DNA of 40,957 bases from a virus (taxonomy: Duplodnaviria; Heunggongvirae; Uroviricota; Caudoviricetes): positions 1 to 40,957 of the IMG/VR virus record IMGVR_UViG_2778261455_000003; one strand, written 5' to 3'. How positions within the stretch are numbered: the stretch's first letter is position 1; each line of letters opens with the position of its first letter. The notes beneath the pieces are model-generated. The model ran no database searches and was not told the DNA's origin. It worked only from the letters and a program-made list of their open reading frames with translations. The position numbers and the translations under genes were made by a program. This document shows positions 1,331-40,390 of the stretch, in pieces.

Positions 1331-1345
1331 GCTTTTTTATACTAA
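1331..1345. other. attL core (GCTTTTTTATACTAA), followed by P' arm with arm-type Int sites
   Basis: Core followed by GTTGGCATTATAAAAAAGCATTGCTTATCAATTTGTTGCAACGAACAGGTCATTATCAGTCAAAATAAAATCATT, matching the lambda attP P' arm with a few substitutions. Confidence 0.85.
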
Positions 1346-1418
1346 GTTGGCATTATAAAAAAGCATTGCTTATCAATTTGTTGCAACGAACAGGTCATTA
1401 TCAGTCAAAATAAAATCA

Positions 1419-2489
1419 TTATTTGATTTCAATTTTGTCCCACTCCCTGCCTCTGTCATCACGATATTGTGATGCCATGGTGTCCGACTTATGCCCGAGA
1501 AGATGTTGAGCAAACTTATCGCTTATCTGCTTCTCATAGAGTCTTGCAGACAAACTGCGCAACTCGTGAAAGGTAGGCGGATCCCCTTCGAAGGAAAGAC
1601 CTGATGCTTTTCGTGCGCGCATAAAATACCTTGATACTGTGCCGGATGAAAGCGGTTCACGACGAGTAGATGCAATTATGGTTTCTCCGCCAAGAATCTC
1701 TTTGCATTTATCAAGTGTTTCCTTCATTGATATCCCGAGAGCATCAACATGCAATGTTGTAGGGATGGCAATTTTTACGCCTGTTTTGCTTTGCTCGACA
1801 TAAAGATATCCATCTACGATATCAGACCACTTCATTTCGCATAAATCACCAACTCGCTGCCCGGTAACAACAGCCAGTTCCATTGCAAGTCTGAGCCAAC
1901 ATGGTGATGATTCTGCTGCTTGATAAATTTTCAGGTATTCGTCAGCCGTAAGTCTTGATCTCCTTACCTCTGATTTTGCTGCGCGAGTGGCAGCGACCGG
2001 GTTTGTTGTTATATGGCCTTCAGCTATTGCCTCTCGGAATGCATCGCTCAGTGTTGATCTGATTAACTTGGCTGACGCCGCCTTGCCCTCGTCTATGTAT
2101 CCATTGAGCATTGCCGCAATTTCTTTTGTGGTGATGTCTTCAAGTGGAGCATCAGGCAGACCCCTCCTTATTGCTTTAATTTTGCTCATGTAATTTATGA
2201 GTGTCTTCTGCTTGATTCCTCTGCTGGCGAGGATTTTTTCGTAGCGATCAAGCCATGAATGTAACGTAACAGAATTATCACTGTTGATTCTCGCTGTCAG
2301 AGGCTTGTGCTTGTGTCCTGAAAATAACTCAATGTTGGCCTGTATAGCTTCAGTGATTGCTATGCGTCTGTCTCGGCCTAATCCGAACTCTTTACCCGTC
2401 CTTGGGTCCCTGTAGCAGTAATATCCATTGTTTCTTATATAAAGGTTAGGGGGTAAATCCCGGCGCTCATGACTTCGCCTTCTTCCCAT
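1419..2489 (-). CDS. int: Tyrosine integrase, lambda Int type
   Basis: 356-aa ORF starting MGRRRSHERRDLPPNLYIRNNGYYCYRDPRTGKEF…, recognised as lambda Int; sits directly beside the attL P' arm. Confidence 0.95.
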   Translation of the reverse strand: MGRRRSHERRDLPPNLYIRNNGYYCYRDPRTGKEFGLGRDRRIAITEAIQANIELFSGHKHKPLTARINSDNSVTLHSWLDRYEKILASRGIKQKTLINYMSKIKAIRRGLPDAPLEDITTKEIAAMLNGYIDEGKAASAKLIRSTLSDAFREAIAEGHITTNPVAATRAAKSEVRRSRLTADEYLKIYQAAESSPCWLRLAMELAVVTGQRVGDLCEMKWSDIVDGYLYVEQSKTGVKIAIPTTLHVDALGISMKETLDKCKEILGGETIIASTRREPLSSGTVSRYFMRARKASGLSFEGDPPTFHELRSLSARLYEKQISDKFAQHLLGHKSDTMASQYRDDRGREWDKIEIK

Positions 2490-2685
2490 TTCTGATCCTC
2501 TTCAAAAGGCTACCTGTTACTGGTCGATTTAAGTCAACCTTTACCGCTGACTCGTGGAACAGATACTCTCTTCCATCCTTAACCGGAGGAGGGAATATCC
2601 TGCATTCGCGCACCCATCGACGAACTGTTTCAAGGCTTCTTGGGCGTCGCTGGCGTGCGTTCCACTCCTGAAGTGTCAAGTACAT
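2467..2685 (-). CDS. xis: Excisionase, lambda Xis type
   Basis: 72-aa ORF MYLTLQEWNARQRRPRSLETVRRWVRECRIFPP…; its end overlaps the int start, as in lambda. Confidence 0.9.
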   Translation of the reverse strand: MYLTLQEWNARQRRPRSLETVRRWVRECRIFPPPVKDGREYLFHESAVKVDLNRPVTGSLLKRIRNGKKAKS

Positions 2686-2724
2686 CGCAAAGTCTCCGCA
2701 ATTACACGCAAGAAAAAACCGCCA

Positions 2725-2892
2725 TCAGGCGGCTTGGTGTTCTTTCAGTTCTTCAATTCGAATATTGGTTACGTCTGCATGTGCTATCTGCGCCCACAGC
2801 ATCCAGTGGTCATAGCAGTCGTTGATGTCCTCTGCTTCGATAACCCTGTTGAATGGCTCTCCATTCCATTCACCTGTAACTCGGAAGTGCAT
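2725..2892 (-). CDS. Small hypothetical protein (55 aa) next to xis
   Basis: ATG preceded by GGAGATG; translation MHFRVTGEWNGEPFNRVIEAEDINDCYDHWMLWAQIAHADVTNIRIEELKEHQAA; below the 60-aa cutoff of the ORF track. Confidence 0.35.
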   Translation of the reverse strand: MHFRVTGEWNGEPFNRVIEAEDINDCYDHWMLWAQIAHADVTNIRIEELKEHQAA

Positions 2893-2964: not shown

Positions 2965-3250
2965 TTATTCAGTGCTGATATTTACCTTTATAGCGAACAC
3001 CTTTACCGGTTTATCGCCGAAGTGCGGATGTGTGATTGTCTTGATTTCATATCCGTCATACGGAACATCAATTCTGCGACTGGAGTCGTCGCGCTTCGGA
3101 TATCCCTTTGTGATAATCAGGCGGTCATACCCCCGGAACATAATTCGCTTATTCCAATAGTCATTACACAGGCGATACTCTTCCGTTTTCTCCCCGCGAA
3201 TCATGGCATCGAAGTATTCACCTTTGACGGCAAGTTGCAGGTTAGCCACG
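2965..3250 (-). CDS. Hypothetical protein (about 95 aa, GTG start)
   Basis: GTG start preceded by GGAGG; start overlaps the stop of the upstream DUF551 gene; the longer 142-aa track ORF is probably an over-extension. Confidence 0.4.
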
Positions 3251-3805
3251 GTTAACCTCCTGCGGCGGTTCTGGTAGCGGCATCCAGTGTGTGACGTTGC
3301 GGCTCTGCGTTTCGAAAAATTCATCACCATCACGGACGACATCAAAAAACTCACCGTCTCGATATTGCGCATAAAGAACGAATGCGCCATCACATAAAAT
3401 AATTACGTGCTGACCATCATCTGGCATTCGATCACTACAGCTTATCCAACCATCCGGAGTTACCGGAGAGTTGCCATTCACAAGGTCAGCTCGAACATAT
3501 AGTGTGTCATCATGGTGCTGATTGTGGCTGCACCACGTTAATTCGCTTAACTCGCCATCTTCTGGCCATACTCCAGCTGTTTGCAGCCAGATATGGGCTG
3601 GCGCATCTTGGCAAGGTGTATTAACTGGCAACTTGTAAGTTTGGCTTACAGGTTCTGCACTATCAGCTTCGCGCCGCTTCTGTAGCTCTGCTGCCATCGC
3701 TCTCACAACTTCAACTGGTGCCCTTGCAGCAAACTCTATGTTGGTGATCAGCTCATTAAGATATTGCTCGCCTGGATACTGTTTCTTATCGGTTATAGTG
3801 GTCAT
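3242..3805 (-). CDS. Hypothetical protein with DUF551-like C-terminal segment (…THWMPLPEPP)
   Basis: 187-aa ORF with RBS TAAGGTGA; C-terminal motif shared with the ORF at 20468..20683. Confidence 0.55.
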   Translation of the reverse strand: MTTITDKKQYPGEQYLNELITNIEFAARAPVEVVRAMAAELQKRREADSAEPVSQTYKLPVNTPCQDAPAHIWLQTAGVWPEDGELSELTWCSHNQHHDDTLYVRADLVNGNSPVTPDGWISCSDRMPDDGQHVIILCDGAFVLYAQYRDGEFFDVVRDGDEFFETQSRNVTHWMPLPEPPQEVNRG

Positions 3806-3807
3806 AG

Positions 3808-3999
3808 CTATTTCACCTTAATCTCAACATTTCGCAGCTTTAGCTCTACTGGCAGGTCTGACTTTCCGGTTAATGCTAATGCGAGATTTTCTGGAGTAAT
3901 GAGAGCCGTTATTGTTTTCCCCATCGACAGACGAATAATCATTCGTATCTCGCGATCGTCACATGCTCCCGGTCGAACAATTGAGATTTGTCCGTTCAT
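3808..3999 (-). CDS. Small hypothetical protein (63 aa)
   Basis: Internal ATG MNGQISIV… preceded by AGGAGAG; directly abuts the stop of the upstream gene. Confidence 0.4.
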   Translation of the reverse strand: MNGQISIVRPGACDDREIRMIIRLSMGKTITALITPENLALALTGKSDLPVELKLRNVEIKVK

Positions 4000-4000
4000 A

Positions 4001-4630
4001 TCACTCTCCTTTGATGCGAATGCCAGCGGCGCGCTCGGATTCACTTTGTTCCCAAAACCACTTGTGAAGCTCCATAAGCTTTTCGTCAATCGGTGCATAT
4101 TTGCGATTAAAGTAGGCCTGAGCATCTTTCTCAGATTCGTCCGGCAATTCGCCAGGGCCAAACAGTGTGTTATAAATCCATGCCAGTCCGCTCTTAGCGT
4201 CGCCAGTTGCCTGCCATTCGATAATCGCAGCCTGCATGACCAGAATGTTTTTCCCGATTAACAGGTCCAGTTCTTTGAACCGGTTGCGGATGTATGCATT
4301 CTCGCTTTGTAATTTTGCGTTGCGCTTCTCTGCGGCTTCCAGCTCAACACGCAGCTTCCCTACCGTTAGCGCAATTTCCTCGTTCTCCTGATCGCGGAGT
4401 TTGATGTATTGCTGGTTCCTTTCCCGTTCATCCAGTAGCGCCAAAGCAACCTTTGGATTAAAGGCAGCAATAAATTCAGCGTTGTTTTTCAGAACGTGTT
4501 GCGCAATCGCCTGACTACTTAGTCGGACCTCATAACCACGTGCGCCACGGTGTGGTTTATATGAGTCCCAGTCTCCCCACGTTGCTTTCTCTGCCGCCTC
4601 ACGCAGTGCCTGATAGTCAATCTTGCTCAT
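4001..4630 (-). CDS. Hypothetical early protein, possibly Ead/Ea22-like
   Basis: 209-aa ORF with RBS AGGGTGA; position and charged repetitive composition resemble Ea22-type proteins; family assignment is from recall only. Confidence 0.45.
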   Translation of the reverse strand: MSKIDYQALREAAEKATWGDWDSYKPHRGARGYEVRLSSQAIAQHVLKNNAEFIAAFNPKVALALLDERERNQQYIKLRDQENEEIALTVGKLRVELEAAEKRNAKLQSENAYIRNRFKELDLLIGKNILVMQAAIIEWQATGDAKSGLAWIYNTLFGPGELPDESEKDAQAYFNRKYAPIDEKLMELHKWFWEQSESERAAGIRIKGE

Positions 4631-4631
4631 G

Positions 4632-4931
4632 TCACATCACCCTGAATCCGTTGCATTTACGTAAGAAATCGCAGATGTAGCCCTTCATTTTTTCGTGCCA
4701 ATCTCGATCATTCCCATTGCACCAACCATCAGGTGGAGTCCAGTTTTCTATCAGAGCAGCCATTTTCTTTGCTTTCGCCGGAGTAGCTGTTGCGGTATCG
4801 CAGTAATGACGAGTGTCAACCAAAGCATCCATACCATCGATATCAAGTATGCAAAACCATGTGTGATTCGGCATTTCAACAGATGGTGTTTGTTGCCCAC
4901 GTCGACGTTTATCAATAAGACATACAGTCAC
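4632..4931 (-). CDS. Hypothetical protein (99 aa, GTG start)
   Basis: GTG start with strong RBS AAGGAGG 7 nt upstream; overlaps the stop of the upstream gene. Confidence 0.45.
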   Translation of the reverse strand: MTVCLIDKRRRGQQTPSVEMPNHTWFCILDIDGMDALVDTRHYCDTATATPAKAKKMAALIENWTPPDGWCNGNDRDWHEKMKGYICDFLRKCNGFRVM

Positions 4932-5470
4932 TGGTTGCCTCCTTTGCGAAGCTGGGCAGCAAAGTCAACTAACCACTCAGTCATTTCAACCTTCCCTACC
5001 AGGTCTGAACCAGGGTGCATACAGCAATCACTTTGCGCCGCTTTGAAATCCTTATACTCATATTCTTGGGCCACCAGATTTTTTGCAGCTTCTATAGCAG
5101 CATCCACCCCCTGCGCCCGAACTTCAGCCAGGAAAGCATCGGTGGCTGGGGTTTTGATTTCGTTAAGCGCATCACTGAATCCACCACGCTCCATACCTAG
5201 CTCTGCTTCGTAATCGGCATCGAATGCAGCGTCTTTGCAGAACTTCTTCATCCCCGCACTCTCCGCTGCCAGCGCCGCGCACTTGGCCTCAAGGTTATCA
5301 ATCGTGATTCCAGCAGAACGACACTCCCGCAACGCCGTTTCTAGTTTTGATTCAAGTTCACCGAACTTACGGACAAGATATTCAGCGTTTGTTTCGTTAA
5401 CCTTTAAATCTCGTGGGATGCATTTACCTTTCAGAAAACCATCCATCTCAATTAGTGACATTTGTTTCAT
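4928..5470 (-). CDS. Hypothetical protein (about 180 aa), possibly Ea22-like
   Basis: [15 protein letters not shown]… preceded by GGAG; its start overlaps (ATGA) the stop of a 54-aa upstream ORF. Confidence 0.45.
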
Positions 5471-5631
5471 TTTTTCCCACTCCGCCACATCGCATTCAGA
5501 TATTTGTTTTGATTCACTGATGGGAAAGAATTTCTCTTAAGTAATTCCTCTCTCGATGGCATTGGCTTTACGCGTTGGCGAATAATCATTTCTGCCGGAA
5601 GAATGCCGGGATTGTATGCAAGTCCTCTCAT
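5467..5631 (-). CDS. Small hypothetical protein (54 aa)
   Basis: Strong RBS AAAGAGGAA before the [41 protein letters not shown]…; found by manual translation. Confidence 0.3.
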
Positions 5632-5647: not shown

Positions 5648-5962
5648 TTAATTTATTCGTATGCCTGCTCTTTCTTCATCGAGTTTTTTTAGCTTGTATC
5701 GCATAGCTCTTACTGAATAAATTGAGCGGCAGGTTGCAATTGCTATTTCTTCTGCGGAGAACTTACCGAAAAGTGATACTTCGGCTCTTGTCCAGCGTCT
5801 TCCACGAAGTCGGCTAACAATGTCAGCGCCAATCCTTGTTGCTTTCGCCATAACTGCTTTTTCAGTCCTTTCCAGTTTTTCAGCGATAACTTCAACTGGC
5901 ATTGTCGCCGCCACTTCGCGCAAGAAATCGACTTCCCATTTCTCCCATGGAGTCTTTTTCAT
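5648..5962 (-). CDS. Hypothetical protein (104 aa), two helix-turn-helix-like repeats
   Basis: Two similar segments beginning WEKWEVDFL… and WTRAEVSLF…, suggesting a tandem small DNA-binding fold; inference only. Confidence 0.4.
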
Positions 5963-5973
5963 AGTCGATACCG

Positions 5974-6462
5974 TTATTTGATAAGAAGTGAAGGTTTCCC
6001 AACCTTGAGTTGAGCGCCTGGGATATTTATTCCTGCTTTTAGTTGGTGCTTGATTGCCAACTTGTCGGCTTTAATTGTCGTTTCAAACTCAACGTATTCA
6101 GGAGGAAGGGCGCTTGAGTCGATGATTTCTACAGTTTCTGACGGTTTGCGGATTGTTACCTGGTGAATACCTGCTCGAATCTTTTTCTTGCCAACCATTT
6201 CAAGCGATGACGCTATATATGATTTGATGCTGTCAATCTTATTTTGAATTACTGTGGCTCGCTCATTCAGTGATTTTGCCTCTTCCTTGAGGCGTTCGGC
6301 ATAACCAGATTCATTTTTAATGACGGAAAGAAGTTGCTCTATTTTATCGGTAAATTCTCCTTCCATGCCTTCTATTGTGTCAGCAATCATCTCTGGTTCT
6401 AAATCTGAATCCATCAATTTTGCGTATTCATTGGCAATTTCATACAGTTTGCTCACTGGCAA
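5974..6462 (-). CDS. Gp157-like protein (siphovirus Gp157 family), RecT-associated
   Basis: 162-aa coiled-coil-rich ORF directly downstream of and overlapping recT; family assignment from recall. Confidence 0.45.
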   Translation of the reverse strand: MPVSKLYEIANEYAKLMDSDLEPEMIADTIEGMEGEFTDKIEQLLSVIKNESGYAERLKEEAKSLNERATVIQNKIDSIKSYIASSLEMVGKKKIRAGIHQVTIRKPSETVEIIDSSALPPEYVEFETTIKADKLAIKHQLKAGINIPGAQLKVGKPSLLIK

Positions 6463-7342
6463 CCTCCAGTTTCGCTTTGCATTCTGCGTAAATGGCTTGT
6501 ACGTTCTGCTGCAATTTCATTCCAGATGTCAGGCGATATGCTTCTGCAAAATACCTCTTCAAATCATCCATGTTTTCAGCCTGAGCCATTTCATCACAAA
6601 GAAGTTGTGCTTTTTCCATTATTTCCTGCTGGCGTTTCCGTTCATCTTCGCGGATATCTTCCTCTGATTTGTGCGGCATAACCGGTTCCTGATGCATACC
6701 CTCATCTTCGTTAAGCAGGTGAATGGCATTATCCAGTCGCTGGGCTTTAGGCCAGTATTTGCTGGCGCGTTTAACTATGGTTTTACGCGCCATCTCTTCC
6801 CAGAATGTCTTCCACGGTCCATTCTTTGCCTTGCTCGTTGCTTCCACAGCTTTAATTTCTGCCAGACTCATTTCTTCAGTCAGGTAGTCACCATCTGCTG
6901 TTTTAACCGTGCAATAACCTCCAACAATAGAGCCTCGCTCACCAAATGCGTTGTATTTGTGGGTTGGTGCCGAATCAAGGCCATTTGATTCATAGGTGTC
7001 GTTTGAGTACACCAGTTTGCATTGCCCCCACTTAATTGATCCTGTCGATTGCGCAAGATGAAGTAATCCCATGTAACTGATATCAAGGCACACCATGCCG
7101 TCGCGAGGAACCAGATAAGCCAGTTTGCTGGCCGGGTTTAAGGTGATGCCGATCGCCGCAACATTGATGATGGCGTTCTGTGCGCTGGTTGGATTTGCCA
7201 GTGCTGTTTTAGCCAGGTAATCATTTTTCTGGAAATACTGAATTGCAAACTGGCTTTCCTTAGCCCATGTCACCGTCTGTTCAGTCAATGCTCCGCAGAA
7301 TAACTGCTCTTGCTGTTTAACGAATTCAACGATATTGCTCAT
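6440..7342 (-). CDS. recT: RecT-family single-strand annealing recombinase
   Basis: 300-aa ORF; segment NGPWKTFWEEMARKTIVKRASKYWP matches the conserved RecT motif NGPWVTHWEEMAKKTAIRRLFKYLP. Confidence 0.8.
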   Translation of the reverse strand: MSNIVEFVKQQEQLFCGALTEQTVTWAKESQFAIQYFQKNDYLAKTALANPTSAQNAIINVAAIGITLNPASKLAYLVPRDGMVCLDISYMGLLHLAQSTGSIKWGQCKLVYSNDTYESNGLDSAPTHKYNAFGERGSIVGGYCTVKTADGDYLTEEMSLAEIKAVEATSKAKNGPWKTFWEEMARKTIVKRASKYWPKAQRLDNAIHLLNEDEGMHQEPVMPHKSEEDIREDERKRQQEIMEKAQLLCDEMAQAENMDDLKRYFAEAYRLTSGMKLQQNVQAIYAECKAKLEVASEQTV

Positions 7343-7650
7343 GCAGCTTCTCCATAAATATGTCTGCGTTTGAATATTGCGAAGGCATATTCAGCCTTAA
7401 CTCTTTCGGTTATTGCATCCCAGAACCATTCAGCGGCTTTTTCCTGATAGTTACAGTCATCATCTTCCAGCCAGTCGATAGCGTCCTTAGTATGTTCATC
7501 TGGTTTATATGAGCGAAGCATTTCGCTTATTGGGTCGCAACGTTTGCAGAGGCGATCAACTTCACTGTTGATTCGTTCGTAATCTTCATCAGTAAAACTT
7601 GCGATTATTTGCGATATTTCACGCTTATCATTCAGAGTCAGAATCATCAT
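7339..7650 (-). CDS. Hypothetical acidic protein (103 aa)
   Basis: ORF whose stop overlaps the recT start; no recognisable family. Confidence 0.4.
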   Translation of the reverse strand: MMILTLNDKREISQIIASFTDEDYERINSEVDRLCKRCDPISEMLRSYKPDEHTKDAIDWLEDDDCNYQEKAAEWFWDAITERVKAEYAFAIFKRRHIYGEAA

Positions 7651-7731: not shown

Positions 7732-7884
7732 TCATTTCCTGCGATACCACGGAAGGTTGATAGCTGATTTCATCGCTTTATTTGCTTCAAGCCACATTTT
7801 TGAATCACCAATAAATCTGGCTATTACTGCTTTGTTCTGTGCAGCACGAAGCATCTGGTGATTAATGGCTATTTCATTGCGCAT
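7732..7884 (-). CDS. kil: Kil-like small protein (host cell-division inhibitor family)
   Basis: 50-aa ORF MRNEIAINHQMLRAAQNKAVIARFIGDSKMWLEANKAMKSAI…; resembles lambda Kil (…TIATFIGDEKMFREAVDAYKKWI…) and lies beside cIII as in lambda. Confidence 0.5.
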   Translation of the reverse strand: MRNEIAINHQMLRAAQNKAVIARFIGDSKMWLEANKAMKSAINLPWYRRK

Positions 7885-8003
7885 AACGCCTCCAGTTGTT
7901 TCTTTGCTGCTCTGATTAATTGTTTAACTCGGCGTGATAATTCAGATTCGTGCGGGTAGAAAGCGGACATGACGCCGCTACCCGCGAGCTGAAAGTGCAT
8001 CAT
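7869..8003 (-). CDS. cIII: cIII-like protein (FtsH inhibitor family)
   Basis: 44-aa ORF with RBS AAGGAG; MMHFQLAGSGVMSAFYPHESELSRRVKQLIRAAKKQL… has the lambda cIII pattern (…AIAGWPVAGCPSESLLERITRKL…). Confidence 0.55.
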   Translation of the reverse strand: MMHFQLAGSGVMSAFYPHESELSRRVKQLIRAAKKQLEALCAMK

Positions 8004-8068
8004 GGGTAACTCCTTATATTTGATTGCATAACGAAAACGCCTCAAGTGAAGCGTTATTGGTATGCATA

Positions 8069-8093
8069 TAAAAAGGCCCTCACACTGGAGGGC
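8069..8093 (-). terminator. Putative intrinsic terminator inside the pL operon
   Basis: On the minus strand GCCCTCCAGTGTGAGGGCC followed by TTTTT; a 6-bp GC stem, placed where N-mediated readthrough would be needed. Confidence 0.35.
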
Positions 8094-8188
8094 AAAGAAG
8101 ATTTCCAATAATCAGAACAAGTCGGCTCCTGTTTAGTTACGAGCGACATTGCTCCGTGTATTCACTCGTTGGAATGAATACACAGTGC

Positions 8189-9124: not shown

Positions 9125-9430
9125 TCAATCGTAATAAGCTGGAATTGATTTTCCGCGTTGCTTCTGGCGGCCTGAGCAAGTCACACCCATTTCACTGCGT
9201 GGCTTGCGGTAGTAAATACGGTTCTGTTTACGCTCGACTTCTTCTGCCTTCTTGCAGCGAAGGCTTCCGAGTGATGCTGCTTTATCTGCTCTGACGCAAC
9301 CAGAGAGCTTTAGCGCAATTTTTCGCGCCAGTCGCTGCTCTTGCATTGCCTGTTCACGTTGAGCCTGTCTGCGTGCTCTGCGGCGATTTCTGGCGTTATC
9401 GTCAGCCAGATATGTAATGACTACTGTCAT
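9125..9430 (-). CDS. N: N-type transcription antiterminator
   Basis: 101-aa ORF with RBS GGAGG; arginine-rich N-terminal motif NARNRRRARRQAQ; C-terminus …YYRKPRSEMGVTCSGRQKQRGKSIP resembles lambda N …WYSKPGERGITCSGRQKIKGKSIP. Confidence 0.75.
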   Translation of the reverse strand: MTVVITYLADDNARNRRRARRQAQREQAMQEQRLARKIALKLSGCVRADKAASLGSLRCKKAEEVERKQNRIYYRKPRSEMGVTCSGRQKQRGKSIPAYYD

Positions 9431-9740
9431 GTTGACCTCCGATGAAACAACTTTGGAATTGATAGTGATTGCAAAGTGGTTTCTGGCCCCTCGAACTGAG
9501 GGGCAGAAAGAGCATCTCGCCACCTAATAGGTCAATGCTCGGATCGAGAGATTTAATTAACCTCGGTTTTGAAGTTATGCATTCACATAAATCCTCCTGT
9601 TGCATGTGCAGCATTGGCTGTGTTTGGCGGCTGCATTTCGCCTATGGAATTGACTTTGGCGGTGACGCGCCGGGTGCTTATCTTCCGGTTGCCGTCGTGC
9701 AGCTGCACTTCACGTCACCCCAAAGCCAACTACTCTTTGG

Positions 9741-35194: not shown

Positions 35195-35455
35195 TTAGCT
35201 GCTGTCTTTTTTATATAGCTCTTTGAGCGTATCAAAGACAATTTTCTTAACCATATCGGATTGTTGTTCTGCCATACGCTCTGCATCGTCAATGTAAACT
35301 GATGCAGAGCTTTGTTTATCCAGTGATTCTTCAATCGCTGCAATTATCTCTGAGTTCAGAGACCTGTTATTCATCTTCGCGCGCTGCTTAATTTTCGCGT
35401 GGAGTTCATGCGGAAGTCTCAAGTGAAACTGCGCCTCGTCGTATTTGCTGTACAT
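35195..35455 (-). CDS. mnt: Mnt-type ribbon-helix-helix repressor
   Basis: 86-aa ORF; …FHLRLPHELHAKIKQRAKMNNRSLNSEIIAAIEESL…DDAERMAEQQSDMVKKIVFDTLKELYKK resembles P22 Mnt. Confidence 0.75.
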   Translation of the reverse strand: MYSKYDEAQFHLRLPHELHAKIKQRAKMNNRSLNSEIIAAIEESLDKQSSASVYIDDAERMAEQQSDMVKKIVFDTLKELYKKDSS

Positions 35456-35576
35456 CCTTGATGCCTCACCAATTGGGTGGAATGGCATCGTAACTTACTG
35501 GATAAATACTCAATAGTACCATTTCGGTATGCAATCACATCATGGTTGCATCATATCATTCGTCTGGAGCAATGAA

Positions 35577-37958
35577 ATGTCAGATATCACCGCAAATGTT
35601 GTGGTAAGCATGCCTTCGCAACTCTTCACTATGGCTCGTTCTTTTAAAGCGGTTGCCAATGGCAAAATTTATATCGGAAAAATTGACACTGACCCGGTAA
35701 ATCCTGAAAACCAGATTCAGGTTTATGTGGAGAACGAAGACGGCTCTCACGTTCCTGTTTCGCAACCAATCATCATTAACGCTGCTGGATATCCGGTATA
35801 TAACGGACAGATTGCAAAATTCGTTACCGTGCAAGGCCATTCTATGGCTGTGTACGATGCGTACGGTGCGCAGCAGTTTTATTTTCCAAATGTGCTGAAG
35901 TATGACCCTGATCAATTCCGTATATACTTTGACAGAGTTATGCATGATATGGCAAAGCCTATAACATATTTTGGGGCCGTACCTGGTGAAGACTGCTCTG
36001 AAGCATTGGAGTCGGCTTTGCATACTGGATTACCATTCTTTTTCCCGGACGGTGAATGGGTTGTAAACAAGAAGATAATATATACAGGAAGTTTCCAGAT
36101 GTTTGGGGTTGGGAATGCGGTTATTAAATCAGACAAGATGTTTGAATTTACTGACGCCAATAATTCAGTTATTGCCGATCTCACCTTCCAGACAATCAGT
36201 GTTCCGTACGTTATTAAGCGTGACACTACTGCATGGGATGCAACAGTATCAGATGTTAAGCAGTCACGAGATGGGTATCAACCAACATCATTGGATACTG
36301 ATATATGGGATGCGCTTCCGCAAATTATTAAAGACCAAGCAATAAATAGAACGATTGAATGTGGAGCAAAATTTTTCTCATCTACATCTTCAGGAGTAGA
36401 CAATGTCAACATTCTGCGAGTTTCCGGGCTTGGTGTTGCATTTGAAATTTATGGTTCTAAAAATTCAGTTGCTAGTGATTGCAGCATAACCGGAAACAGT
36501 AGAGATGCTATAACATTTATAAACGATACTGTCTTCAACGGAATTTCATTGCCGCGAGGCACAGGAAATAGGGCGGTAAATAACAACGTAACCTACGCTT
36601 CGCAGTGCGGTATATCATGGTGGGGGCAGGATGAATTTTTATGTGATGGCAATAATACACAATATTGTGGCGAATCAGGAATAAAAATTTATCAATACGA
36701 TACCAACCATCCAGTATCAATTGTCAGCAAAGGAAGTCGCATAGTTAACAACTATTCAGCATACAATTACTACGATGGCATTGATGCTCAGGTATGGTAT
36801 CCGCCAGCAACAGATCCGGGTGTGGTAGCTAGAAACGTTATAAAAAACAATATATCAATAGGTAGCAGACATACAGGAATAACTTCTAACGGCGGTCAGG
36901 AATTAGTTTCAGGGAACCATTGCCGAAGTACTGGTGGGTCTGGTATTAGAATTGTCTCAAACAGAAGTGTTATTGAAACGAATATTGCAACTGATTGTGC
37001 CAATGCATCATCACAGCACTCATTCCAGATTTTTGGTATGAGCATCCAAGGTGATGGTATTATTTCTATAGGTAACAGGGTTAATAATTCATCATCTCCT
37101 GCGAGCACCTATGATTATTTGCATACTGGAATAAATGGAAACGATCCAGCATCCGGGGATCCCGGGCTTGATTTTGGTAATACCTGTAGCGCAGGACCGG
37201 ATGTGATGTTTATTTCTAATAATATCACATCGTCAATGTCTGAGTTTCTTGTTGGAGCTTCCTCTAAAACAAATACATTTAACGCTTCGTTAATAGCCAG
37301 AAAAAACGGCTATGGCGTTGATCTTTGCGGTGGTAACGGGGAGGGTTCGGTAAACATACGTGGAGATGCTACATTTGGGGCGAGTATTAATTTTCAGCCT
37401 GTTTCCGAAGATCCTTCAACAACCACCCCTAAAGGTGGTCTGAGATACAGCTTTTCAGCAAAAAAACTTATCATCTCAACTGAGAGAGAAGCAAAAGTCG
37501 AAATTGGCGAGACTGCCGGAGTATATCCAACAGCGGACAATAGCATCGGACTTGGCCTGCCATCAAATCGATGGACAGCAGTTTATGCTGCAAATGGAAC
37601 AATTGTCACATCAGATGGGAGACTAAAATGTAATGAAAGAAGTTTGAGTGAAGCAGAATTAGCAACAGCTAACGCATTAAAGAATATGATTAAAGCATAT
37701 AAGTTTACCGAATCCGTTGAAGGTAAAGGTGAAAATGCAAGGATTCATTTTGGCGTTATCGCTCAAGAGGTTATTAAGGCATTTAACGCAAATGGTCTTG
37801 ATGCTTTTAAATATGGAATAGTCTGCTATGACGAGTGGGATTCTCAATCAGATCTAAAAGATTCCTCAGGAAATATAATCACTCCAGAAATAAAAGGCGG
37901 TAATAGATACGGCATTAGATATGATGAATTATTGTGCTTCATCATTGCTGCACTATAA
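35577..37958 (+). CDS. Tailspike protein: P22-type head-binding N-terminus, divergent central domain, C-terminal auto-chaperone-like segment
   Basis: N-terminus [47 protein letters not shown]… matches the P22 tailspike head-binding domain; the rest is unrelated to P22, Ser/Asn/Gly-rich, and ends with a segment (…[23 protein letters not shown]…) resembling intramolecular chaperone domains. Confidence 0.85.
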
Positions 37959-37984
37959 AAAAAGGGGCATTAGCCCCTTTTTTT
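37957..37984. terminator. Bidirectional intrinsic terminator between convergent tailspike and acyltransferase genes
   Basis: AAAAAAAGGGGC-ATTA-GCCCCTTTTTTT: a perfect GC stem flanked by an A-run and a T-run. Confidence 0.6.
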
Positions 37985-39899
37985 ATTCGAATATTTCCTT
38001 TCTGTATTTATCTACTATGTAAGTAGATCCTGCCTCTGTAAGATGCCCCCAATCAACAGCAGTTATACCTTTTGGTCCTTCTGATGTTCTTGTAAGACAA
38101 CCACCATCTCCACACATAGCCGAATATGGTGAAACGTAATCCACTCCAAGCGTTGGAATATTCTTTTTGAGAAAATCATCCCATTCCTTAATCTGAGGCT
38201 TTAATCCATCCTTCATGTAGCGTGGAGGTTCATTATGATTATTTGTATAGTACAAGACTATTTGTTTTATAAGGCTTTCATCCCACTCAGGCACAGGACC
38301 AACAACAATGATTTTTGATTCAGGAGAAGCAAACTTAATCTTTTTAATTGTTTCATTAAGAGATAAGATGGCCTGATTCTTATCAAATATAGCATTCTGA
38401 CCTTCAACCATCCATGATATTATAATTTTCTTCGGCTTATACATTTCAACGAAATTTAATCTCTCATTATTTGCATCTGTGAGAGTTTTTAGTGTATCTG
38501 TCTTTCTGTTGTCAAAATAGAAAGGAGGCCCATTCCCATCGGTCATCTGGCTAATGAAAACATCTTTGTAATACTTGTCGCTAACATTTTTCAATCCGCT
38601 ATATAAAGCGGCAGCGTATGAATCACCCCATATAAATATTTGATTATCGCTCTTAGCTACGCAACCACTACTTACTGCAACCTCTGGTGTTACAGAGTGG
38701 CATTTATTGCTTCTCATTAAATTTGGGTAATCGAAAAAATCATAAACGTTAATTATTGAGCTATATTCCTTGGCTATTTCGTTAATCTTTCTATCTTGTA
38801 TTCCATTATGCTTATATACGTACAGTCCAGCCTGGCCAACTATGAAAAGAATGATGGCGGAAACAGCAGCATTATAACCCCTATGCTTTCCAAACCTTAC
38901 TTTACGCTCAACTAAGTAAAACGATAGGAACGCTAAAATCATTGAGGCGAAAATTATAAAAATACCGTTCAGTAAGTCTATATCGCTTGCCGTTTTCAAC
39001 TTGTAGAAAACTATTAAAGGCCAGTGCCACAGGTAAAGCGGGTAGCTAATTAATCCAATGAATACAAATAACTTATTAGACAGCAGACGCCCAACACAAC
39101 TATCATTGCCATAACACACTATCATAGCAGTACCAGCAACAGGAACCATTGCAATGTATCCCGGGAAATTCATTTTGCTGTTTATAAAAAACATTGAAAA
39201 AACAATCAAAATAAAACCAATTACCGGCACGATAATATTAAGCGTGGATTTTCTATTACCCCCATCTCTGAATGTTAGAGATATGGCAGCCCCTGTCATT
39301 AATTCCCATAATCTCGTTAAAGGAGAGTAATAGCTTACACTTTGGTTATGTATTGTTTCATATATACAATATAGCAGGCTTGCTATAAATAATAACATTA
39401 TGTAAATTCTTGCAGAATTCTTTCTTTTGACAATAAGAAGTATTAATGCAGGCCATATTATATAGAATTGCTCCTCAACACCCAAAGACCATAGGTGTAG
39501 CAATGGTTTCAATTCAGACGCTGTATCAAAGTATCCTGACTCAAGAATATATCCTATATTAGCAACGAAGAATGCGCCTGTAAAAACGTTCTTTCCTAGC
39601 GAGGCGTATTCACTCTGAAGAAGGAAGAACCAACCATAAATTAATGAAGCTGCCAGAACAGCAATCAGAGATGGGAATATTCTTAGCGCTCTTCTTTTAT
39701 AAAATTCAGTGTAACTGAATTTATTAGTAAGTGCTTCACTATAAATAATGTTTGTTATAAGGTATCCAGATATAACAAAGAATATATCAACACCAACGAA
39801 TCCACCTGGTAGAGTGCTTGGGAAAATGTGATAAACAATTACTGACAATACAGCAATTGCTCGTAGCCCATCGATATCAGGTCTGTATTTTATAGACAT
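37983..39899 (-). CDS. Membrane acyltransferase (AT3 domain plus C-terminal SGNH-like domain); probable O-antigen acetyltransferase
   Basis: 638-aa ORF with about ten hydrophobic segments in the N-terminal two-thirds and a soluble C-terminal domain; markedly AT-rich compared with neighbouring phage genes. Confidence 0.8.
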   Translation of the reverse strand: MSIKYRPDIDGLRAIAVLSVIVYHIFPSTLPGGFVGVDIFFVISGYLITNIIYSEALTNKFSYTEFYKRRALRIFPSLIAVLAASLIYGWFFLLQSEYASLGKNVFTGAFFVANIGYILESGYFDTASELKPLLHLWSLGVEEQFYIIWPALILLIVKRKNSARIYIMLLFIASLLYCIYETIHNQSVSYYSPLTRLWELMTGAAISLTFRDGGNRKSTLNIIVPVIGFILIVFSMFFINSKMNFPGYIAMVPVAGTAMIVCYGNDSCVGRLLSNKLFVFIGLISYPLYLWHWPLIVFYKLKTASDIDLLNGIFIIFASMILAFLSFYLVERKVRFGKHRGYNAAVSAIILFIVGQAGLYVYKHNGIQDRKINEIAKEYSSIINVYDFFDYPNLMRSNKCHSVTPEVAVSSGCVAKSDNQIFIWGDSYAAALYSGLKNVSDKYYKDVFISQMTDGNGPPFYFDNRKTDTLKTLTDANNERLNFVEMYKPKKIIISWMVEGQNAIFDKNQAILSLNETIKKIKFASPESKIIVVGPVPEWDESLIKQIVLYYTNNHNEPPRYMKDGLKPQIKEWDDFLKKNIPTLGVDYVSPYSAMCGDGGCLTRTSEGPKGITAVDWGHLTEAGSTYIVDKYRKEIFE

Positions 39900-40375
39900 A
39901 TCATAAATTCATCGAGTTAAACAGGTGCAAAATTCTAGCATTAATGCATAGTGCGTTCAGCAATTATCTTATTCATAACCTTATTCTGGCTTCTTCGATG
40001 TGGTGATGAGACAAAACTGAGACACACAAAGCTTTGCACTGGGTTGCAAGGCTTTGTGCTATTCGATAATGGTTAGGGTGGATCACTCTGGCTTTTCATC
40101 AAGCCAGTCCGCCCACCATTGCATCATTTCTCTGCGCTTATCGAGATACTGAGCATGGTTGTAAATTCAACTAACCCAGTGCGTTGACAAAAAATTAGCG
40201 CAAGAGGACAAAAAATCACCTTGCGCTAATGCTCTGTCTCAGGTCACTAATACTATCTAAGTAGTTGATTCATAGTGACTGGATATGTTGTGTTTTGTAG
40301 CATTATGCAGTCTATTTTTTAGACTGAATTAGGTGTAACACATTGATATTATTGTCTTTTGATGTTTCGCGTTCA

Positions 40376-40390
40376 GCTTTTTTATACTAA
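40376..40390. other. attR core (GCTTTTTTATACTAA), preceded by the P arm with arm-type Int sites
   Basis: Upstream …CAGGTCACTAATACTATCTAAGTAGTTGATTCATAGTGACTGGATATGTTG… resembles the lambda attP P arm; downstream CTTGAGCGAAACGGGAAGG is the bacterial B' side. Confidence 0.85.

What the first reader, a model, noticed from the sequence alone, without database searches (positions are those of the whole stretch)
1331..40390. Lambda/P22-type mosaic prophage at attB-lambda
Lambda-type att arms, int/xis, Q, pR' and S-R-Rz frame a non-lambda immunity region and a P22-type pac-headful packaging, head, ejection and tailspike module. The lambda b-region and tail genes (J, stf, lom) are absent and bor is missing after Rz. 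The module joints are candidate recombination points.
Basis: partly seen in the sequence, partly recalled or inferred. Interest (0 to 1): 0.55.

Follow-up and report, generated by a model that had tools for sequence, protein, structure and literature searches.

The report
P22-like prophage at lambda's attachment site
This is an apparently intact but ordinary E. coli prophage of the P22-like group that uses phage lambda's integration cassette; its one unusual feature is a DNA-methylase gene that appears to encode a second conserved protein in a shifted reading frame.

Summary
A 39-kb prophage lies between ybhC and ybhB, bounded by two exact copies of lambda's 15-bp att core (1331-1345 and 40376-40390).

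Lambda-like parts:
- P' arm, int, xis and orf55: 98% nt.
- Q and pR': 97%.
- S, R and the 5' end of Rz: 93%.
- P arm: 86%.

Non-lambda parts:
- Immunity (N, cI, cro, cII) is phage HK620's, at 98-100%.
- The virion module has P22 gene order. The small terminase is 162/162 aa identical to P22's, and the 22-bp P22 pac site is exact.
- The rest of the virion module is about 95% nt identical to E. coli phage IME10 and 72-93% aa identical to P22.
- Lambda head, tail, lom, stf, b-region and bor genes are absent.

- Rz/Rz1 are P22-type.
- Q, pR' and S are also nearly identical in P22.
- Only the head-binding domain of the tailspike is P22-like.
- An O-antigen-type acyltransferase and a 27-codon relic of an HK620-type integrase were missed.

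Sister prophages and an inducible P22-like phage at this site are already known, so this is an ordinary new member of a known kind.

Side finding: the nin-region C5-methyltransferase carries a nested +1-frame ORF. It is open in all 77 homologues examined and is under purifying selection.

The parts
1..1284 (-). Host gene ybhC (left flank)
   Evidence: 99.9% identical to ybhC in E. coli chromosomes.
1331..1345 (+). attL core (B-O-P'), the 15-bp lambda overlap/core sequence
   Evidence: Exact match. It is followed by the lambda P' arm, which has 2 mismatches, one of them in P'1.
1419..2489 (-). int, lambda-type tyrosine integrase (356 aa)
   Evidence: 99.2% aa identity to lambda Int over the full length.
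2467..2685 (-). xis, lambda excisionase (72 aa)
   Evidence: 98.6% aa identity to lambda Xis.
2725..2892 (-). Homologue of lambda orf55 (lambdap35). Lambda homology ends at 2968.
   Evidence: 96.4% aa identity. The blastn block 1331-2968 ends at lambda 29361.
2965..5631 (-). ea-type accessory genes: phrog_625, DUF551, Ead/Ea22, DUF7739, phrog_614 and DUF2737-like
   Evidence: Pfam and PHROG hits. Patchy 91-97% matches to HK620, IME10 and P22 ea genes.
5648..7650 (-). Recombination module: D5-like regulator, Gp157-family protein, RecT (6440-7342) and phrog_3486. It replaces lambda exo/bet/gam.
   Evidence: PF03837 at 2.5e-33 and PF05565 at 1.2e-38. 90.8% nt to mEpX1 and 97.4% to the 88-3493 prophage.
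7732..8108 (-). kil (7732-7884) and cIII (7869-8108)
   Evidence: phrog_2055 at 1.2e-35 and phrog_550 at 1.4e-12.
9125..9523 (-). N antiterminator, itself a mosaic: HK620 N-terminal part and IME10/lambda-like C-terminal part
   Evidence: tblastn: residues 27-95 are 98.6% identical to HK620 N, and residues 96-128 are 64% identical to lambda N.
9649..11834 (.). Immunity region of HK620: OL, hkaS (10002-10391, -), cI (10388-11104, -), OR, cro (11205-11405, +) and cII (11514-11792, +)
   Evidence: 98.3% nt to HK620 7660-9845. cI 99.6%, Cro 100% and cII 96.7% aa.
11827..13855 (+). Replication genes: O-type initiator (281 aa), DnaC/IstB-type helicase loader (303 aa) and ren-like gene
   Evidence: PF04492 at 4.6e-36 and PF01695 at 1.3e-18. 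98.5% nt to mEpX1.
14834..15429 (+). ninB and ninE
   Evidence: 95% nt to HK620 and mEpX1.
15426..16376 (+). C5 cytosine DNA methyltransferase cassette inserted between ninE and ninF, where ninX sits in sister phages
   Evidence: PF00145 at 6.6e-14 and phrog_363 at 2e-92. The ATG overlaps the ninE stop codon.
15541..16332 (+). Nested +1-frame ORF ('ALT', 263 aa) inside the methyltransferase gene, with AAGGAG 8 nt upstream of its ATG
   Evidence: Open in 77 of 77 unique homologues. ALT dN/dS is 0.23, against about 1 in controls and 1.36 upstream of the ORF. The Shine-Dalgarno sequence and ATG are conserved.
16363..17757 (+). ninF, a phrog_2638 ORF, DUF1364/HkbD, rusA and ninH
   Evidence: 96.9% nt to HK620 14063-15652 from 16923 onward. 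PHROG hit.
17754..18377 (+). Q late antiterminator (207 aa)
   Evidence: 99.5% aa to lambda Q and 96.6% to P22 gp23.
18420..18510 (+). pR' promoter (TTGACT-17-TAAATT) with qut and a short P22-type tR' hairpin (18482-18510)
   Evidence: Promoter and terminator scan. Lambda homology stops at 18477, whereas P22 homology is continuous from 17754 to 19120.
18811..19594 (+). S holin (18811-19134) and R endolysin (19118-19594), both lambda-type
   Evidence: 99.1% and 98.7% aa to lambda. R has no P22 gp19 match.
19591..20028 (+). Rz (145 aa) with embedded Rz1 (19790-19972): P22 gene 15/Rz1-type spanins, not lambda Rz
   Evidence: Rz is 89% identical to P22 gp15 and 58.6% to lambda Rz. Rz1 is 96.7% identical to P22 Rz1.
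20386..20448 (+). int-alpA RNA motif (Rfam RF02996)
   Evidence: 45.1 bits against a gathering score of 35.8.
21153..21641 (+). Gene 3, small terminase, containing the P22 pac site (21420-21441)
   Evidence: 162/162 aa identical to P22 gp3. The 22-bp pac sequence is exact. PF16677.
21619..23118 (+). Gene 2, large terminase, with an internal joint at about 22519
   Evidence: 90-99% nt to P22 up to 22519 and 71-78% after it. 99.6% aa to IME10.
23119..29712 (+). Portal (gp1), scaffold (gp8), coat (gp5), gp4 and gp10
   Evidence: 98-99.6% aa to IME10 and 61-93% to P22, all aligned over the full length.
29712..30560 (+). gp26 tail needle with an Sf6-type C-terminal knob (282 aa)
   Evidence: PF16532 at 7.4e-110. 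Homology to P22, IME10 and HK620 stops at about residue 148.
30560..35105 (+). gp14 and the ejection proteins gp7, gp20 and gp16
   Evidence: 97-100% aa to IME10, except the gp20 C-terminus and the gp16 N-terminus (32256-33324), which differ.
35195..35488 (-). mnt, the only immI gene present (no arc, ant or sieA)
   Evidence: PF03869 and PF11423. No tblastn hit for P22 arc, ant or sieA.
35577..37958 (+). Tailspike: P22 head-binding domain, a distinct beta-helix receptor-binding domain, and a C-terminal S74 intramolecular chaperone
   Evidence: PF09008 at 2.3e-67 and PF13884 at 2e-10. PDB matches. Beyond residue 130 only about 20% identical to P22 gp9.
37983..39899 (-). AT3-SGNH acyltransferase (638 aa, GC 0.35): an OafB-like candidate O-antigen acetylase and lysogenic-conversion gene
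   Evidence: PF01757 at 7.5e-34 and PF19040 at 1.4e-19. Its SGNH domain matches PDB 6SE1 at 1.1e-78. GC content.
40086..40166 (-). Relic of the last 27 codons of an HK620/IntS-type integrase gene
   Evidence: tblastn 96.3% to HK620 Int residues 359-385. 91.7% nt to HK620 1-133. PGAP annotates the same fragment as a partial pseudogene in strain 88-3493.
40185..40390 (+). Lambda-type P arm (sib/tI hairpin, P1, H1, P2, X1) and the attR core (40376-40390)
   Evidence: 85.7% nt to lambda 27534-27742. Site-by-site alignment. Exact core.
40481..40957 (-). Host gene ybhB (right flank)

Best explanation
The window holds an apparently complete temperate phage genome of the P22-like podovirus group (genus Lederbergvirus, the E. 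coli HK620/IME10/Sf6 lineage). It is integrated at the lambda attB site between ybhC and ybhB.

Shown by sequence:
- It integrated through lambda-type Int acting on a lambda-type attP. Both junctions carry the identical 15-bp core in B-O-P' and P-O-B' order.
- It carries HK620 immunity and an O plus DnaC-type replication module.
- Late control is lambda/P22-type Q-pR'. Holin and endolysin are lambda-type, and the spanins are P22-type.
- The virion module is a full P22-order set. Its small terminase and pac site are identical to those of P22.

Inferred:
- On SOS induction the HK620-type cI is cleaved. Int and Xis excise the genome at the core, and replication starts from the O-type origin.
- Q antiterminates at pR'. 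DNA is then packaged by the headful mechanism starting at pac, into T=7 P22-like heads with a short tail, an Sf6-type needle knob and six tailspikes.
- In the lysogen, the divergently transcribed low-GC AT3-SGNH acyltransferase acetylates the O-antigen or another surface glycan. This would block superinfection by phages that use the same receptor.

History, inferred from the 27-codon relic of an HK620-type int next to the P arm: an HK620-like ancestor had its own int-attP-xis region replaced by a 1.8-kb lambda cassette (lambda 27534-29361). Further exchanges brought in:
- the P22 terminase segment (joint in gene 2 at about 22519);
- the Sf6-type needle knob;
- a new tailspike receptor domain together with the acyltransferase (joint at 35918);
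- a C5-methyltransferase cassette in place of ninX.
For: - Exact duplicated att core with ybhC and ybhB flanks.
- Identity blocks and breakpoints against lambda, P22, IME10, HK620, mEpX1 and the 88-3493 prophage.
- Every essential virion protein aligns over its full length at 97-100% to functional phage IME10.
- Exact pac site, and gp3 is 162/162 aa identical to P22.
- pR' and a terminator found by scan.
- Pfam and PDB assignments for the tailspike, needle knob, Mnt and acyltransferase.
- Integrase relic, also present in the sister prophage of strain 88-3493.
- 688 of 5,426 complete E. coli genomes match at least 80% of window 39900-40957, which spans the relic, the P arm, the core and ybhB.
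- An experimentally inducible P22-like phage, phiHS3, integrates upstream of ybhC (bioRxiv 10.64898/2026.05.19.726188).
Against: - No experiment shows that this prophage is inducible.
- The P arm is only 86% identical to lambda. The X2/Fis/H2 region is diverged and P'1 has one mismatch, so excision efficiency is unknown.
- arc, ant and sieA are absent, so immI is reduced to mnt.
- The acyltransferase substrate and the tailspike receptor are not identified.
- No complete E. coli genome or phage record holds 80% or more of either half of the element. This exact mosaic has therefore not been seen as a working phage.
Confidence: 0.85

Rival explanations
1. It is a defective (cryptic) prophage. The genes look complete, but it can no longer excise or form plaques, for example because of the diverged P arm and the P'1 mismatch.
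For: The P arm is 85.7% identical to lambda, with changes in the X2/Fis/H2 region and one change in P'1. The immI region is reduced to mnt.
Against: - All 14 virion proteins, Int, Xis, Q, S, R, cI and Cro align over their full length at 97-100% to proteins of plaque-forming phages.
- The P1, H1, P2 and X1 sites, the core and the sib hairpin are conserved.
- At least 80% of window 39900-40957, which includes the P arm, is matched in 688 genomes. That argues the arm is a functional variant rather than decay.
- A P22-like phage at this site is inducible.
Confidence: 0.12
2. The backbone is a lambda-type phage that acquired a P22 virion module. This is the direction implied by calling it a lambda/P22 hybrid.
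For: Int, Xis, Q, S and R are 98-99.5% identical to lambda.
Against: - Only about 4.8 kb aligns with lambda.
- Q, pR' and S are also P22-like, and the region between them is continuous only with P22.
- Immunity, the nin genes, the virion genes and the gene order around the conversion locus are those of HK620 and IME10.
- A relic of an HK620-type int sits directly next to the lambda P arm. This shows that the lambda cassette was the incoming piece.
Confidence: 0.05
3. The mosaic is an assembly chimera or a laboratory lambda-P22 hybrid construct.
For: Lambda-P22 hybrids have been made in laboratories (from general knowledge). This exact combination is not in the phage or complete-genome collections.
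Against: - An independent complete genome (strain 88-3493, CP027457) carries a sister prophage with the same attL, attR, int relic, immunity and virion genes. It covers 28.4 kb of the window at 95-99%.
- The tailspike-acyltransferase cassette occurs at 99.8% identity in strain 81EVA.
- No vector or marker sequence is present.
- The joints fall at the gene and domain boundaries typical of natural lambdoid mosaicism.
Confidence: 0.02

Closest known systems
Prophage between ybhB and ybhC of E. coli strain 88-3493 (NZ_CP027457.1, 239.4-278.1 kb)
   Same: Same insertion site and the same lambda-type int and xis. It also shares the HK620 int relic, the HK620-type cI and cro, the RecT module, the lysis genes and the P22-order virion genes, including the 282-aa knobbed needle. 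It matches 28.4 kb of the window at 95-99%.
   Different: It has a different tailspike (674 aa), a different acyltransferase (354 aa) and a DnaB-type helicase replication module. It has ninX where this element has the methyltransferase cassette, plus Rha and extra immI-region genes.
Enterobacteria phage IME10 (NC_019501, Lederbergvirus)
   Same: Virion genes 2 to 16, mnt and the tailspike head-binding domain are about 95% nt and 97-100% aa identical. Q, S, R and Rz are 96-100% aa identical.
   Different: IME10 has an IntS-type integrase and a different immunity region. Its gene 3 is only 82% aa identical, and its needle C-terminus, tailspike receptor domain and conversion locus all differ.
Enterobacteria phage HK620 (NC_002730, Lederbergvirus HK620)
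   Same: The immunity region, the N-terminal part of N, ninB/E, HkbD-rusA-ninH-Q-pR', and gp10, gp14 and gp7 are shared. The relic at 40086-40166 corresponds to the 3' end of HK620 int.
   Different: HK620 has unrelated terminase, portal, scaffold and coat types (0-33% aa identity). It also has an IntS integrase with attP between int and xis, a different tailspike and an O-antigen polymerase-like conversion gene.
Salmonella phage P22 (NC_002371)
   Same: Same gene order. gp3 and the pac site are identical, and the 5' 900 nt of gene 2 are 90-99% identical. Gene 15/Rz1, Q/gene 23, the short late leader and the tailspike head-binding domain are shared.
   Different: The other virion genes are only 72-93% aa identical. 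P22 integrates at thrW with its own Int. It also has c2 immunity, a full immI (arc, ant, sieA), gtrABC conversion, a gp19 lysozyme, erf/abc recombination genes and an endorhamnosidase tailspike.
Phage lambda (NC_001416)
   Same: attP core, P' arm, int, xis and orf55 (98%), a diverged P arm (86%), Q/pR' (97%), S and R (98-100% in S), the ninE and ninF pieces, and the chromosomal site.
   Different: The element has no cos terminase and no lambda head, tail, lom, stf, b-region, bor, red/gam, rex or P genes, and no lambda cI/cro specificity. Lambda has a long 6S leader and orf-64, which are absent here.
Phage phiHS3 of E. coli HS (bioRxiv 10.64898/2026.05.19.726188)
   Same: It is a P22-like temperate phage shown experimentally to integrate upstream of ybhC. 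It is induced by mitomycin C and carries a single conversion gene at the gtrABC position.
   Different: Its conversion gene is annotated as an O-antigen ligase, not an acyltransferase.

Membership tests
P22-like phages (genus Lederbergvirus) | Virion gene order 3-2-1-8-5-4-10-26-14-7-20-16-(immI)-9 with homologous proteins | tested here: met
   All 14 genes are present in this order at 21153-37958. They are 61-100% aa identical to P22 and 97-100% to IME10.
P22-like phages (genus Lederbergvirus) | gp3-type small terminase with a pac site inside gene 3 (headful packaging) | tested here: met
   gp3 is 162/162 aa identical to P22 and the 22-bp pac sequence is exact at 21420-21441. Packaging itself was not testable.
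P22-like phages (genus Lederbergvirus) | Tailspike with the P22 gp9 N-terminal head-binding domain | tested here: met
   PF09008 at 2.3e-67. About 80% identity to P22 gp9 residues 1-115.
P22-like phages (genus Lederbergvirus) | Genus-level nucleotide similarity (about 70% across the genome) to a classified member | tested here: inconclusive
   18.2 kb of the roughly 39-kb element aligns to IME10 at about 95%, 14.5 kb to P22 and 11.6 kb to HK620. No formal intergenomic similarity was computed.
Lambdavirus (lambda-like siphoviruses) | cos-type terminase (nu1/A) with lambda head and long-tail genes (B-E, V, H, J) | tested here: not met
   No tblastn hit at E <= 1e-3 for nu1, A, B, E, V, H, J, lom, stf or tfa.
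Lambda site-specific recombination system (Int/Xis/attP x attB) | Identical 15-bp core at both prophage junctions in the gal-bio (ybhC-ybhB) interval | tested here: met
Lambda site-specific recombination system (Int/Xis/attP x attB) | Lambda Int and Xis proteins | tested here: met
   99.2% and 98.6% aa identity over the full length.
Lambda site-specific recombination system (Int/Xis/attP x attB) | The full set of arm sites: P1, H1, P2, X1, X2/F, H2, H' and P'1-3 | tested here: inconclusive
   P1, H1, P2, X1, the H2 core, H', P'2 and P'3 are conserved. X2/F and the H2 flanks are diverged, and P'1 has one C-to-T change. The functional effect is not testable here.
AT3-SGNH (OafA/OafB-type) surface-glycan O-acetyltransferases | N-terminal 10-TM acyltransferase-3 domain fused to a periplasmic SGNH domain | tested here: met
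   PF01757 at residues 8-325 and PF19040 at residues 409-633. The SGNH domain matches PDB 6SE1 at 1.1e-78.
AT3-SGNH (OafA/OafB-type) surface-glycan O-acetyltransferases | O-antigen acetylation activity | not testable with these tools
   Inferred only from the domains and from the position between the tailspike and att, where P22-like phages carry conversion genes.
Functional same-strand overlapping gene pair (methyltransferase frame and +1 'ALT' frame) | The alternative frame stays open across diverged homologues more than chance allows | tested here: met
   - 77 of 77 unique homologues (47-100% aa identity) have the +1 frame open over 78-95% of the gene, while the +2 frame reaches at most 103 codons.
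- In most homologues, synonymous shuffles reach the observed length in 0-8 of 400 trials.
Functional same-strand overlapping gene pair (methyltransferase frame and +1 'ALT' frame) | Purifying selection on the alternative frame, independent of the main frame | tested here: met
   - On 20 independent pairs, dNN/dNS is 0.227 for ALT and dNN/dSN is 0.235 for the methyltransferase.
- The same +1-frame measure on six ordinary genes gives 0.84-1.28.
- Upstream of the ALT start, within the same gene, it is 1.36.
- Differences fall mostly at methyltransferase codon position 1 (46-56%), whereas in controls 67-87% fall at position 3.
Functional same-strand overlapping gene pair (methyltransferase frame and +1 'ALT' frame) | Own translation start signals | tested here: met
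   AAGGAG lies 8 nt upstream of the ATG at 15541. GGAG is kept in 40 of 54 unique variants, through the rare AGG (28) or CGG (12) arginine codon.
Functional same-strand overlapping gene pair (methyltransferase frame and +1 'ALT' frame) | Evidence that the protein is made (ribosome profiling, mass spectrometry) and has a phenotype | not testable with these tools
   None available. The AF2 model is only partly confident (pLDDT 66). There is no structural or family match.

The most novel reading that the evidence does not exclude
The most novel reading concerns cargo inside the prophage, not the mosaic itself. The C5-cytosine methyltransferase cassette at 15426-16376 encodes a second functional protein of about 263 aa in the +1 frame (15541-16332).

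This nested same-strand gene pair is conserved in temperate and virulent phages of gamma- and beta-proteobacteria. About 15,600 clusters at 50% identity match its profile. Both frames are under equally strong purifying selection. The pair appears to be undescribed: it is absent from Pfam and NCBIfam, and gene callers and RefSeq sometimes annotate the shifted frame as the 'DNA methyltransferase'.

The protein would be made either from its own Shine-Dalgarno/ATG or, alternatively, as a +1 frameshift fusion to the methyltransferase N-terminal half. It would act with or alongside the methylase.
Probability: 0.5. Interest if true: 0.7.

Novelty: new member of a known kind. Interest (0 to 1): 0.25.

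Why it matters
As a prophage, this is a clean textbook example of lambdoid modular exchange.
- The joints are mapped to within a few bases to about 100 bases.
- A molecular fossil, the 27 codons of the displaced integrase, gives the direction of the integration-module swap.
- P22-like phages carrying lambda's integration cassette appear to be common at attB-lambda. In 688 of 5,426 complete E. coli genomes, at least 80% of the 1,058-bp right-end query is matched. That query runs from the relic and P arm into ybhB.
- An element that looks 'lambda-like' at this site is therefore often not a lambda-type virus. This matters for prophage typing, for transduction (P22-type pac packaging supports generalized and lateral transduction) and for serotype conversion.

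None of this is surprising to a specialist.

The methyltransferase cassette could matter more. Same-strand, fully nested overlapping genes of about 800 nt that are conserved over such divergence are rare in dsDNA phages and bacteria. Annotation pipelines handle this one inconsistently, and it offers a directly testable case of dual coding.

Tried and rejected
- tRNA scan: none found, so this is not a tRNA-targeting integration.
- PADLOC scan of ten accessory ORFs: only generic methyltransferase hits and no defence system.
- The idea that the tailspike is a P22-type endorhamnosidase, suggested by a 36% BLAST and PDB match over residues 17-519, was rejected. Nearly all of the identity lies in the head-binding domain. 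The rest is about 20% identical with many gaps.
- Lambda bor, lom, stf and b-region genes were looked for by tblastn and are absent.
- Laboratory construct or assembly chimera was rejected because sister prophages exist in independent complete genomes.
- For the nested ORF:
  - The first AF2 run with 35 sequences gave pLDDT 45.6.
  - The second, with 150 sequences, gave pLDDT 66 with two confident segments.
  - Foldseek against PDB gave nothing (best E 0.07, TM 0.12).
  - A PDB sequence-profile search gave nothing.
  - Pfam and NCBIfam gave nothing.
  - Three literature searches found no description.
- The PHROG label 'DNA methyltransferase' for the shifted-frame families phrog_1008 and phrog_31772 is best explained by annotation of the wrong frame. 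This is seen in the Xanthomonas phage FoX4 and Burkholderia phage vB_E228 records.
- I did not run large protein searches on the tailspike or the acyltransferase, because Pfam, PDB and genome searches already settled what they are.

Full report
**1. Observation**

The window is E. coli chromosome. ybhC lies at 1-1284 (minus strand) and ybhB from 40481 (minus strand), both matching about 5,400 complete genomes. The 15-bp lambda att core GCTTTTTTATACTAA occurs exactly twice, at 1331-1345 and 40376-40390 (0.02 expected by chance). The left copy reads B-O-P' and the right copy reads P-O-B'. The finding's coordinates are therefore exactly the prophage ends. There are no tRNA genes.

**2. Identity map**

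Lambda-like segments:
- Lambda 27724-29361 (core, P' arm, int, xis, orf55) matches window 1331-2968 at 98.0%. Int is 99.2% and Xis 98.6% aa identical.
- The P arm (40185-40394) is only 85.7% identical.
  - The sib/tI hairpin, P1, H1, P2, X1 and the H2 core are kept.
  - The X2/Fis region is diverged.
  - P'1 has one mismatch.
- Q and pR' (17744-18477) are 96.6% identical to lambda.
- S, R and the 5' end of Rz (18640-19839) are 93.5% identical to lambda. Q is 99.5%, S 99.1% and R 98.7% aa identical.
- In total only about 4.8 kb aligns with lambda.
- Q, pR' and S are also 89-98% identical in P22, and only P22 is collinear through the short leader.
- pR' (TTGACT-17-TAAATT) lies at 18420-18448, followed by a hairpin terminator at 18482-18510. 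Lambda's long 6S leader and orf-64 are absent.

Corrections and other modules:
- Rz is not lambda's. It is 58.6% aa identical to lambda Rz and 89% to P22 gp15. Rz1 is 96.7% identical to P22 Rz1.
- The immunity region (9239-11834: N 5' part, OL, hkaS, cI, OR, cro, cII) is HK620's at 98-99.5% nt. cI is 99.6% and Cro 100% aa identical.
- Replication (11802-13858) is the O plus DnaC-loader plus ren type of phage mEpX1, at 98.5%.
- Recombination is RecT-type, not red.
- kil and cIII are present.

**3. Virion module**

Genes 3, 2, 1, 8, 5, 4, 10, 26, 14, 7, 20, 16, mnt and 9 are all present, in P22 order, and full length.
- gp3 is 162/162 aa identical to P22 gp3, and the 22-bp P22 pac site is exact at 21420-21441.
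- Gene 2 is 90-99% nt identical to P22 up to about 22519 and 71-78% after it, so a joint lies inside the gene.
- From there to 35917 the closest relative is E. coli phage IME10, at about 95% nt and 97-100% aa. Two replaced patches interrupt this:
  - the tail-needle C-terminus (29932-30560), which is an Sf6-type knob (PF16532 at 7e-110);
  - the gp20 C-terminus and gp16 N-terminus (32256-33324).
- immI is reduced to mnt. There is no arc, ant or sieA.
- The tailspike (real start at M17, nt 35577) has the P22 head-binding domain. Beyond residue 130 it is only about 20% identical to P22 gp9. It ends in an S74 intramolecular-chaperone domain like those of endosialidase and T5 fibres.

**4.

(a) ORF 37983-39899 (minus strand, 638 aa, GC 0.35) is an AT3-SGNH acyltransferase.
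- Its SGNH domain matches the solved Salmonella lipopolysaccharide-modification acyltransferase domain 6SE1 at 1e-78.
- It sits where P22 has gtrABC and HK620 has its polymerase-like gene. I infer it is the lysogenic-conversion gene.
- The tailspike receptor domain plus this gene (35900-40030) occurs in only one of 5,426 complete genomes (strain 81EVA, 99.8%). There it lies in a P22-like prophage with a different integrase. It therefore behaves as a mobile receptor/conversion cassette.

(b) Window 40086-40166 (minus strand) encodes the last 27 residues of an HK620/IntS-type integrase at 96% identity. It lies directly beside the lambda P arm.
- The same fragment is present in the sister prophage of strain 88-3493, where PGAP annotates it as a partial pseudogene.
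- This relic shows the direction of the exchange. An HK620-like genome lost its own int-attP-xis region to a 1.8-kb lambda cassette (lambda 27534-29361). The other joint is at 2968.

(c) An int-alpA RNA motif lies at 20386-20448.

**5. How ordinary is it?**

- No phage record or complete E. coli genome holds 80% or more of either half, so this precise mosaic is new.
- Strain 88-3493 carries a sister prophage at the same site with the same int/xis, relic, immunity and virion genes. It covers 28.4 kb of the window at 95-99%.
- 688 of 5,426 genomes match at least 80% of the 1,058-bp right-end query (39900-40957), which spans the relic, the P arm, the core and ybhB.
- A 2026 preprint shows experimentally that a P22-like phage (phiHS3) integrates upstream of ybhC, is induced by mitomycin C and packages neighbouring host DNA.
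- Mosaicism of P22-like phages with other lambdoid phages, including lambda-like gene 23/Q, is long established (PMC2629481).
- A laboratory construct or an assembly chimera is excluded by these independent natural relatives.
It is a new member of a known kind, of low interest.

**6. Mechanism**

Shown:
- The integration junctions.
- The complete gene set.
- The P22-identical small terminase and pac site.
- The lambda-type Int and Xis.
- The HK620 repressor and operators.

Inferred:
- SOS cleavage of cI.
- Int/Xis excision at the core.
- O/DnaC-dependent replication.
- Q antitermination at pR'.
- Headful packaging from pac.
- Assembly of a short-tailed virion with a knobbed needle and six tailspikes.
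- Holin, transglycosylase and spanin lysis.
- Surface-glycan acetylation by the prophage-expressed acyltransferase.

The main rival is a defective prophage (confidence about 0.12), because the P arm has diverged.

**7. Side finding inside the prophage**

*The cassette and its second frame.* Between ninE and ninF, where sister phages have ninX, there is a C5-cytosine methyltransferase gene at 15426-16376. It matches PF00145 and phrog_363 at 2e-92, and motifs I, IV, VI, VIII and X are present. Fully nested in it, in the +1 frame, is a 263-269-codon ORF ('ALT'; conserved start at 15541).

*The frame stays open in homologues.*
- The +1 frame is open over 78-95% of the gene in all 77 unique homologues fetched from IMG/VR (47-100% aa identity, GC 0.49-0.64). 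The +2 frame never exceeds 103 codons. In most homologues, synonymous-codon shuffles reach the observed length in 0-8 of 400 trials.
- The same holds in phages of Erwinia, Salmonella, Bordetella, Burkholderia, Edwardsiella and Xanthomonas, and in a virulent E. coli Kagunavirus.
- In two of those records the annotated CDS is actually the ALT frame.
- In the E. coli-like contigs examined, the gene caller chose ALT and left the methyltransferase uncalled.

*Start signals.* The ALT start is preceded at 8 nt by AAGGAG, built from methyltransferase codons GAA-AGG-AGT. The rare AGG arginine codon is used in 28 of 54 unique variants and CGG in 12.

*Substitution pattern.* Among close relatives, differences fall mainly at methyltransferase codon position 1 (46-56%), with 37% at position 3. 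In ordinary genes of this prophage, 67-87% fall at position 3.

*Selection test.* I applied an OLGenie-type test to 20 phylogenetically independent pairs.
- dNN/dNS (ALT) is 0.227 and dNN/dSN (methyltransferase) is 0.235.
- The +1-frame measure on six control genes is 0.84-1.28.
- Within the same gene it is 1.36 upstream of the ALT start, then 0.51, 0.18 and 0.19 in the three thirds of ALT.

*What ALT looks like.*
- ALT homologues are numerous: 2,784 hits in the word-index search, and 15,599 clusters at 50% identity match the ALT profile.
- None of the 120 best word-search hits nor the ten cluster representatives I scanned matches a Pfam or NCBIfam family.
- Conserved motifs include [37 protein letters not shown], repeated GW(P/Q)TP.A.D units of variable copy number, and [17 protein letters not shown].
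- AF2 with 150 sequences gives pLDDT 66. A helix plus hairpin (residues 69-117) and the C-terminal helices (221-261) are confident, and the linkers are disordered.
- No structural match was found, and three literature searches found no description.

*Interpretation.* I conclude that the shifted frame is very probably a real coding sequence under selection. Two things remain open. One is whether it is translated from its own start or reached by a +1 frameshift from the methyltransferase frame. The selection pattern, with the methyltransferase strongest in its N-terminal half and ALT strongest in its C-terminal two-thirds, is compatible with both. The other is what the protein does.

Noticed in passing
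window 15426-16376 (methyltransferase) and 15541-16332 (+1 frame); related loci L005-L011, L012-L091 and L095-L097: - The nin-region C5-methyltransferase gene contains a fully nested +1-frame ORF of about 263 codons.
- It is open in all 77 unique homologues examined and has its own conserved Shine-Dalgarno sequence and ATG.
- It is under purifying selection (dN/dS about 0.2, against about 1 in controls).
- It belongs to a very large unannotated protein family, and is sometimes annotated in place of the methyltransferase.
   Followed up: yes
window 40086-40166 (minus strand): A 27-codon relic of the 3' end of an HK620/IntS-type integrase gene lies directly next to the lambda P arm. It is also present in the sister prophage of strain 88-3493. 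It marks the displaced integration module.
   Followed up: yes
window 37983-39899 (minus strand): A low-GC (0.35) AT3-SGNH acyltransferase of 638 aa, resembling the Salmonella OafB-type O-antigen acetyltransferase (PDB 6SE1). It is a likely serotype-conversion gene. Together with the tailspike receptor domain, it is found in only one of 5,426 complete E. coli genomes (strain 81EVA).
   Followed up: partly
window 35577-37958: The tailspike is a three-part chimera: a P22 head-binding domain, an unrelated beta-helix receptor domain, and a C-terminal S74 self-cleaving chaperone domain like those of endosialidases and T5 fibres. The receptor specificity is unknown.
   Followed up: partly
window 20386-20448 (+): An Rfam int-alpA RNA motif (RF02996; 45.1 bits against a gathering score of 35.8) lies between Rz and a small DUF551 ORF, far from the integrase gene.
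   Followed up: no
window 21619-23118: There is a recombination joint inside the large terminase gene at about 22519. Upstream it is 90-99% nt identical to Salmonella phage P22, and downstream only 71-78%. The E. coli prophage therefore carries a near-identical copy of P22's pac-recognition unit.
   Followed up: yes
window 9125-9523 (minus strand): The N antiterminator gene is itself a mosaic. Residues 27-95 match HK620 N at 98.6%, and the C-terminal 33 residues match lambda/IME10-type N.
   Followed up: partly
L096 (Xanthomonas phage FoX4, NC_055839) 984-1709; L008 (Burkholderia phage vB_E228) 263-1480: In these public records the CDS annotated at the methyltransferase locus ('DNA methyltransferase' or 'putative metabolic enzyme') is in the shifted ALT frame, while the true methyltransferase frame is unannotated. 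The PHROG families phrog_1008 and phrog_31772, labelled 'DNA methyltransferase', match the ALT frame.
   Followed up: partly
window 13856-14830 and 16542-16922: Small nin-region ORFs (99, 83, 93 and 130 aa) have no match in any reference phage used here, and match only PHROGs of unknown function or none.
   Followed up: no
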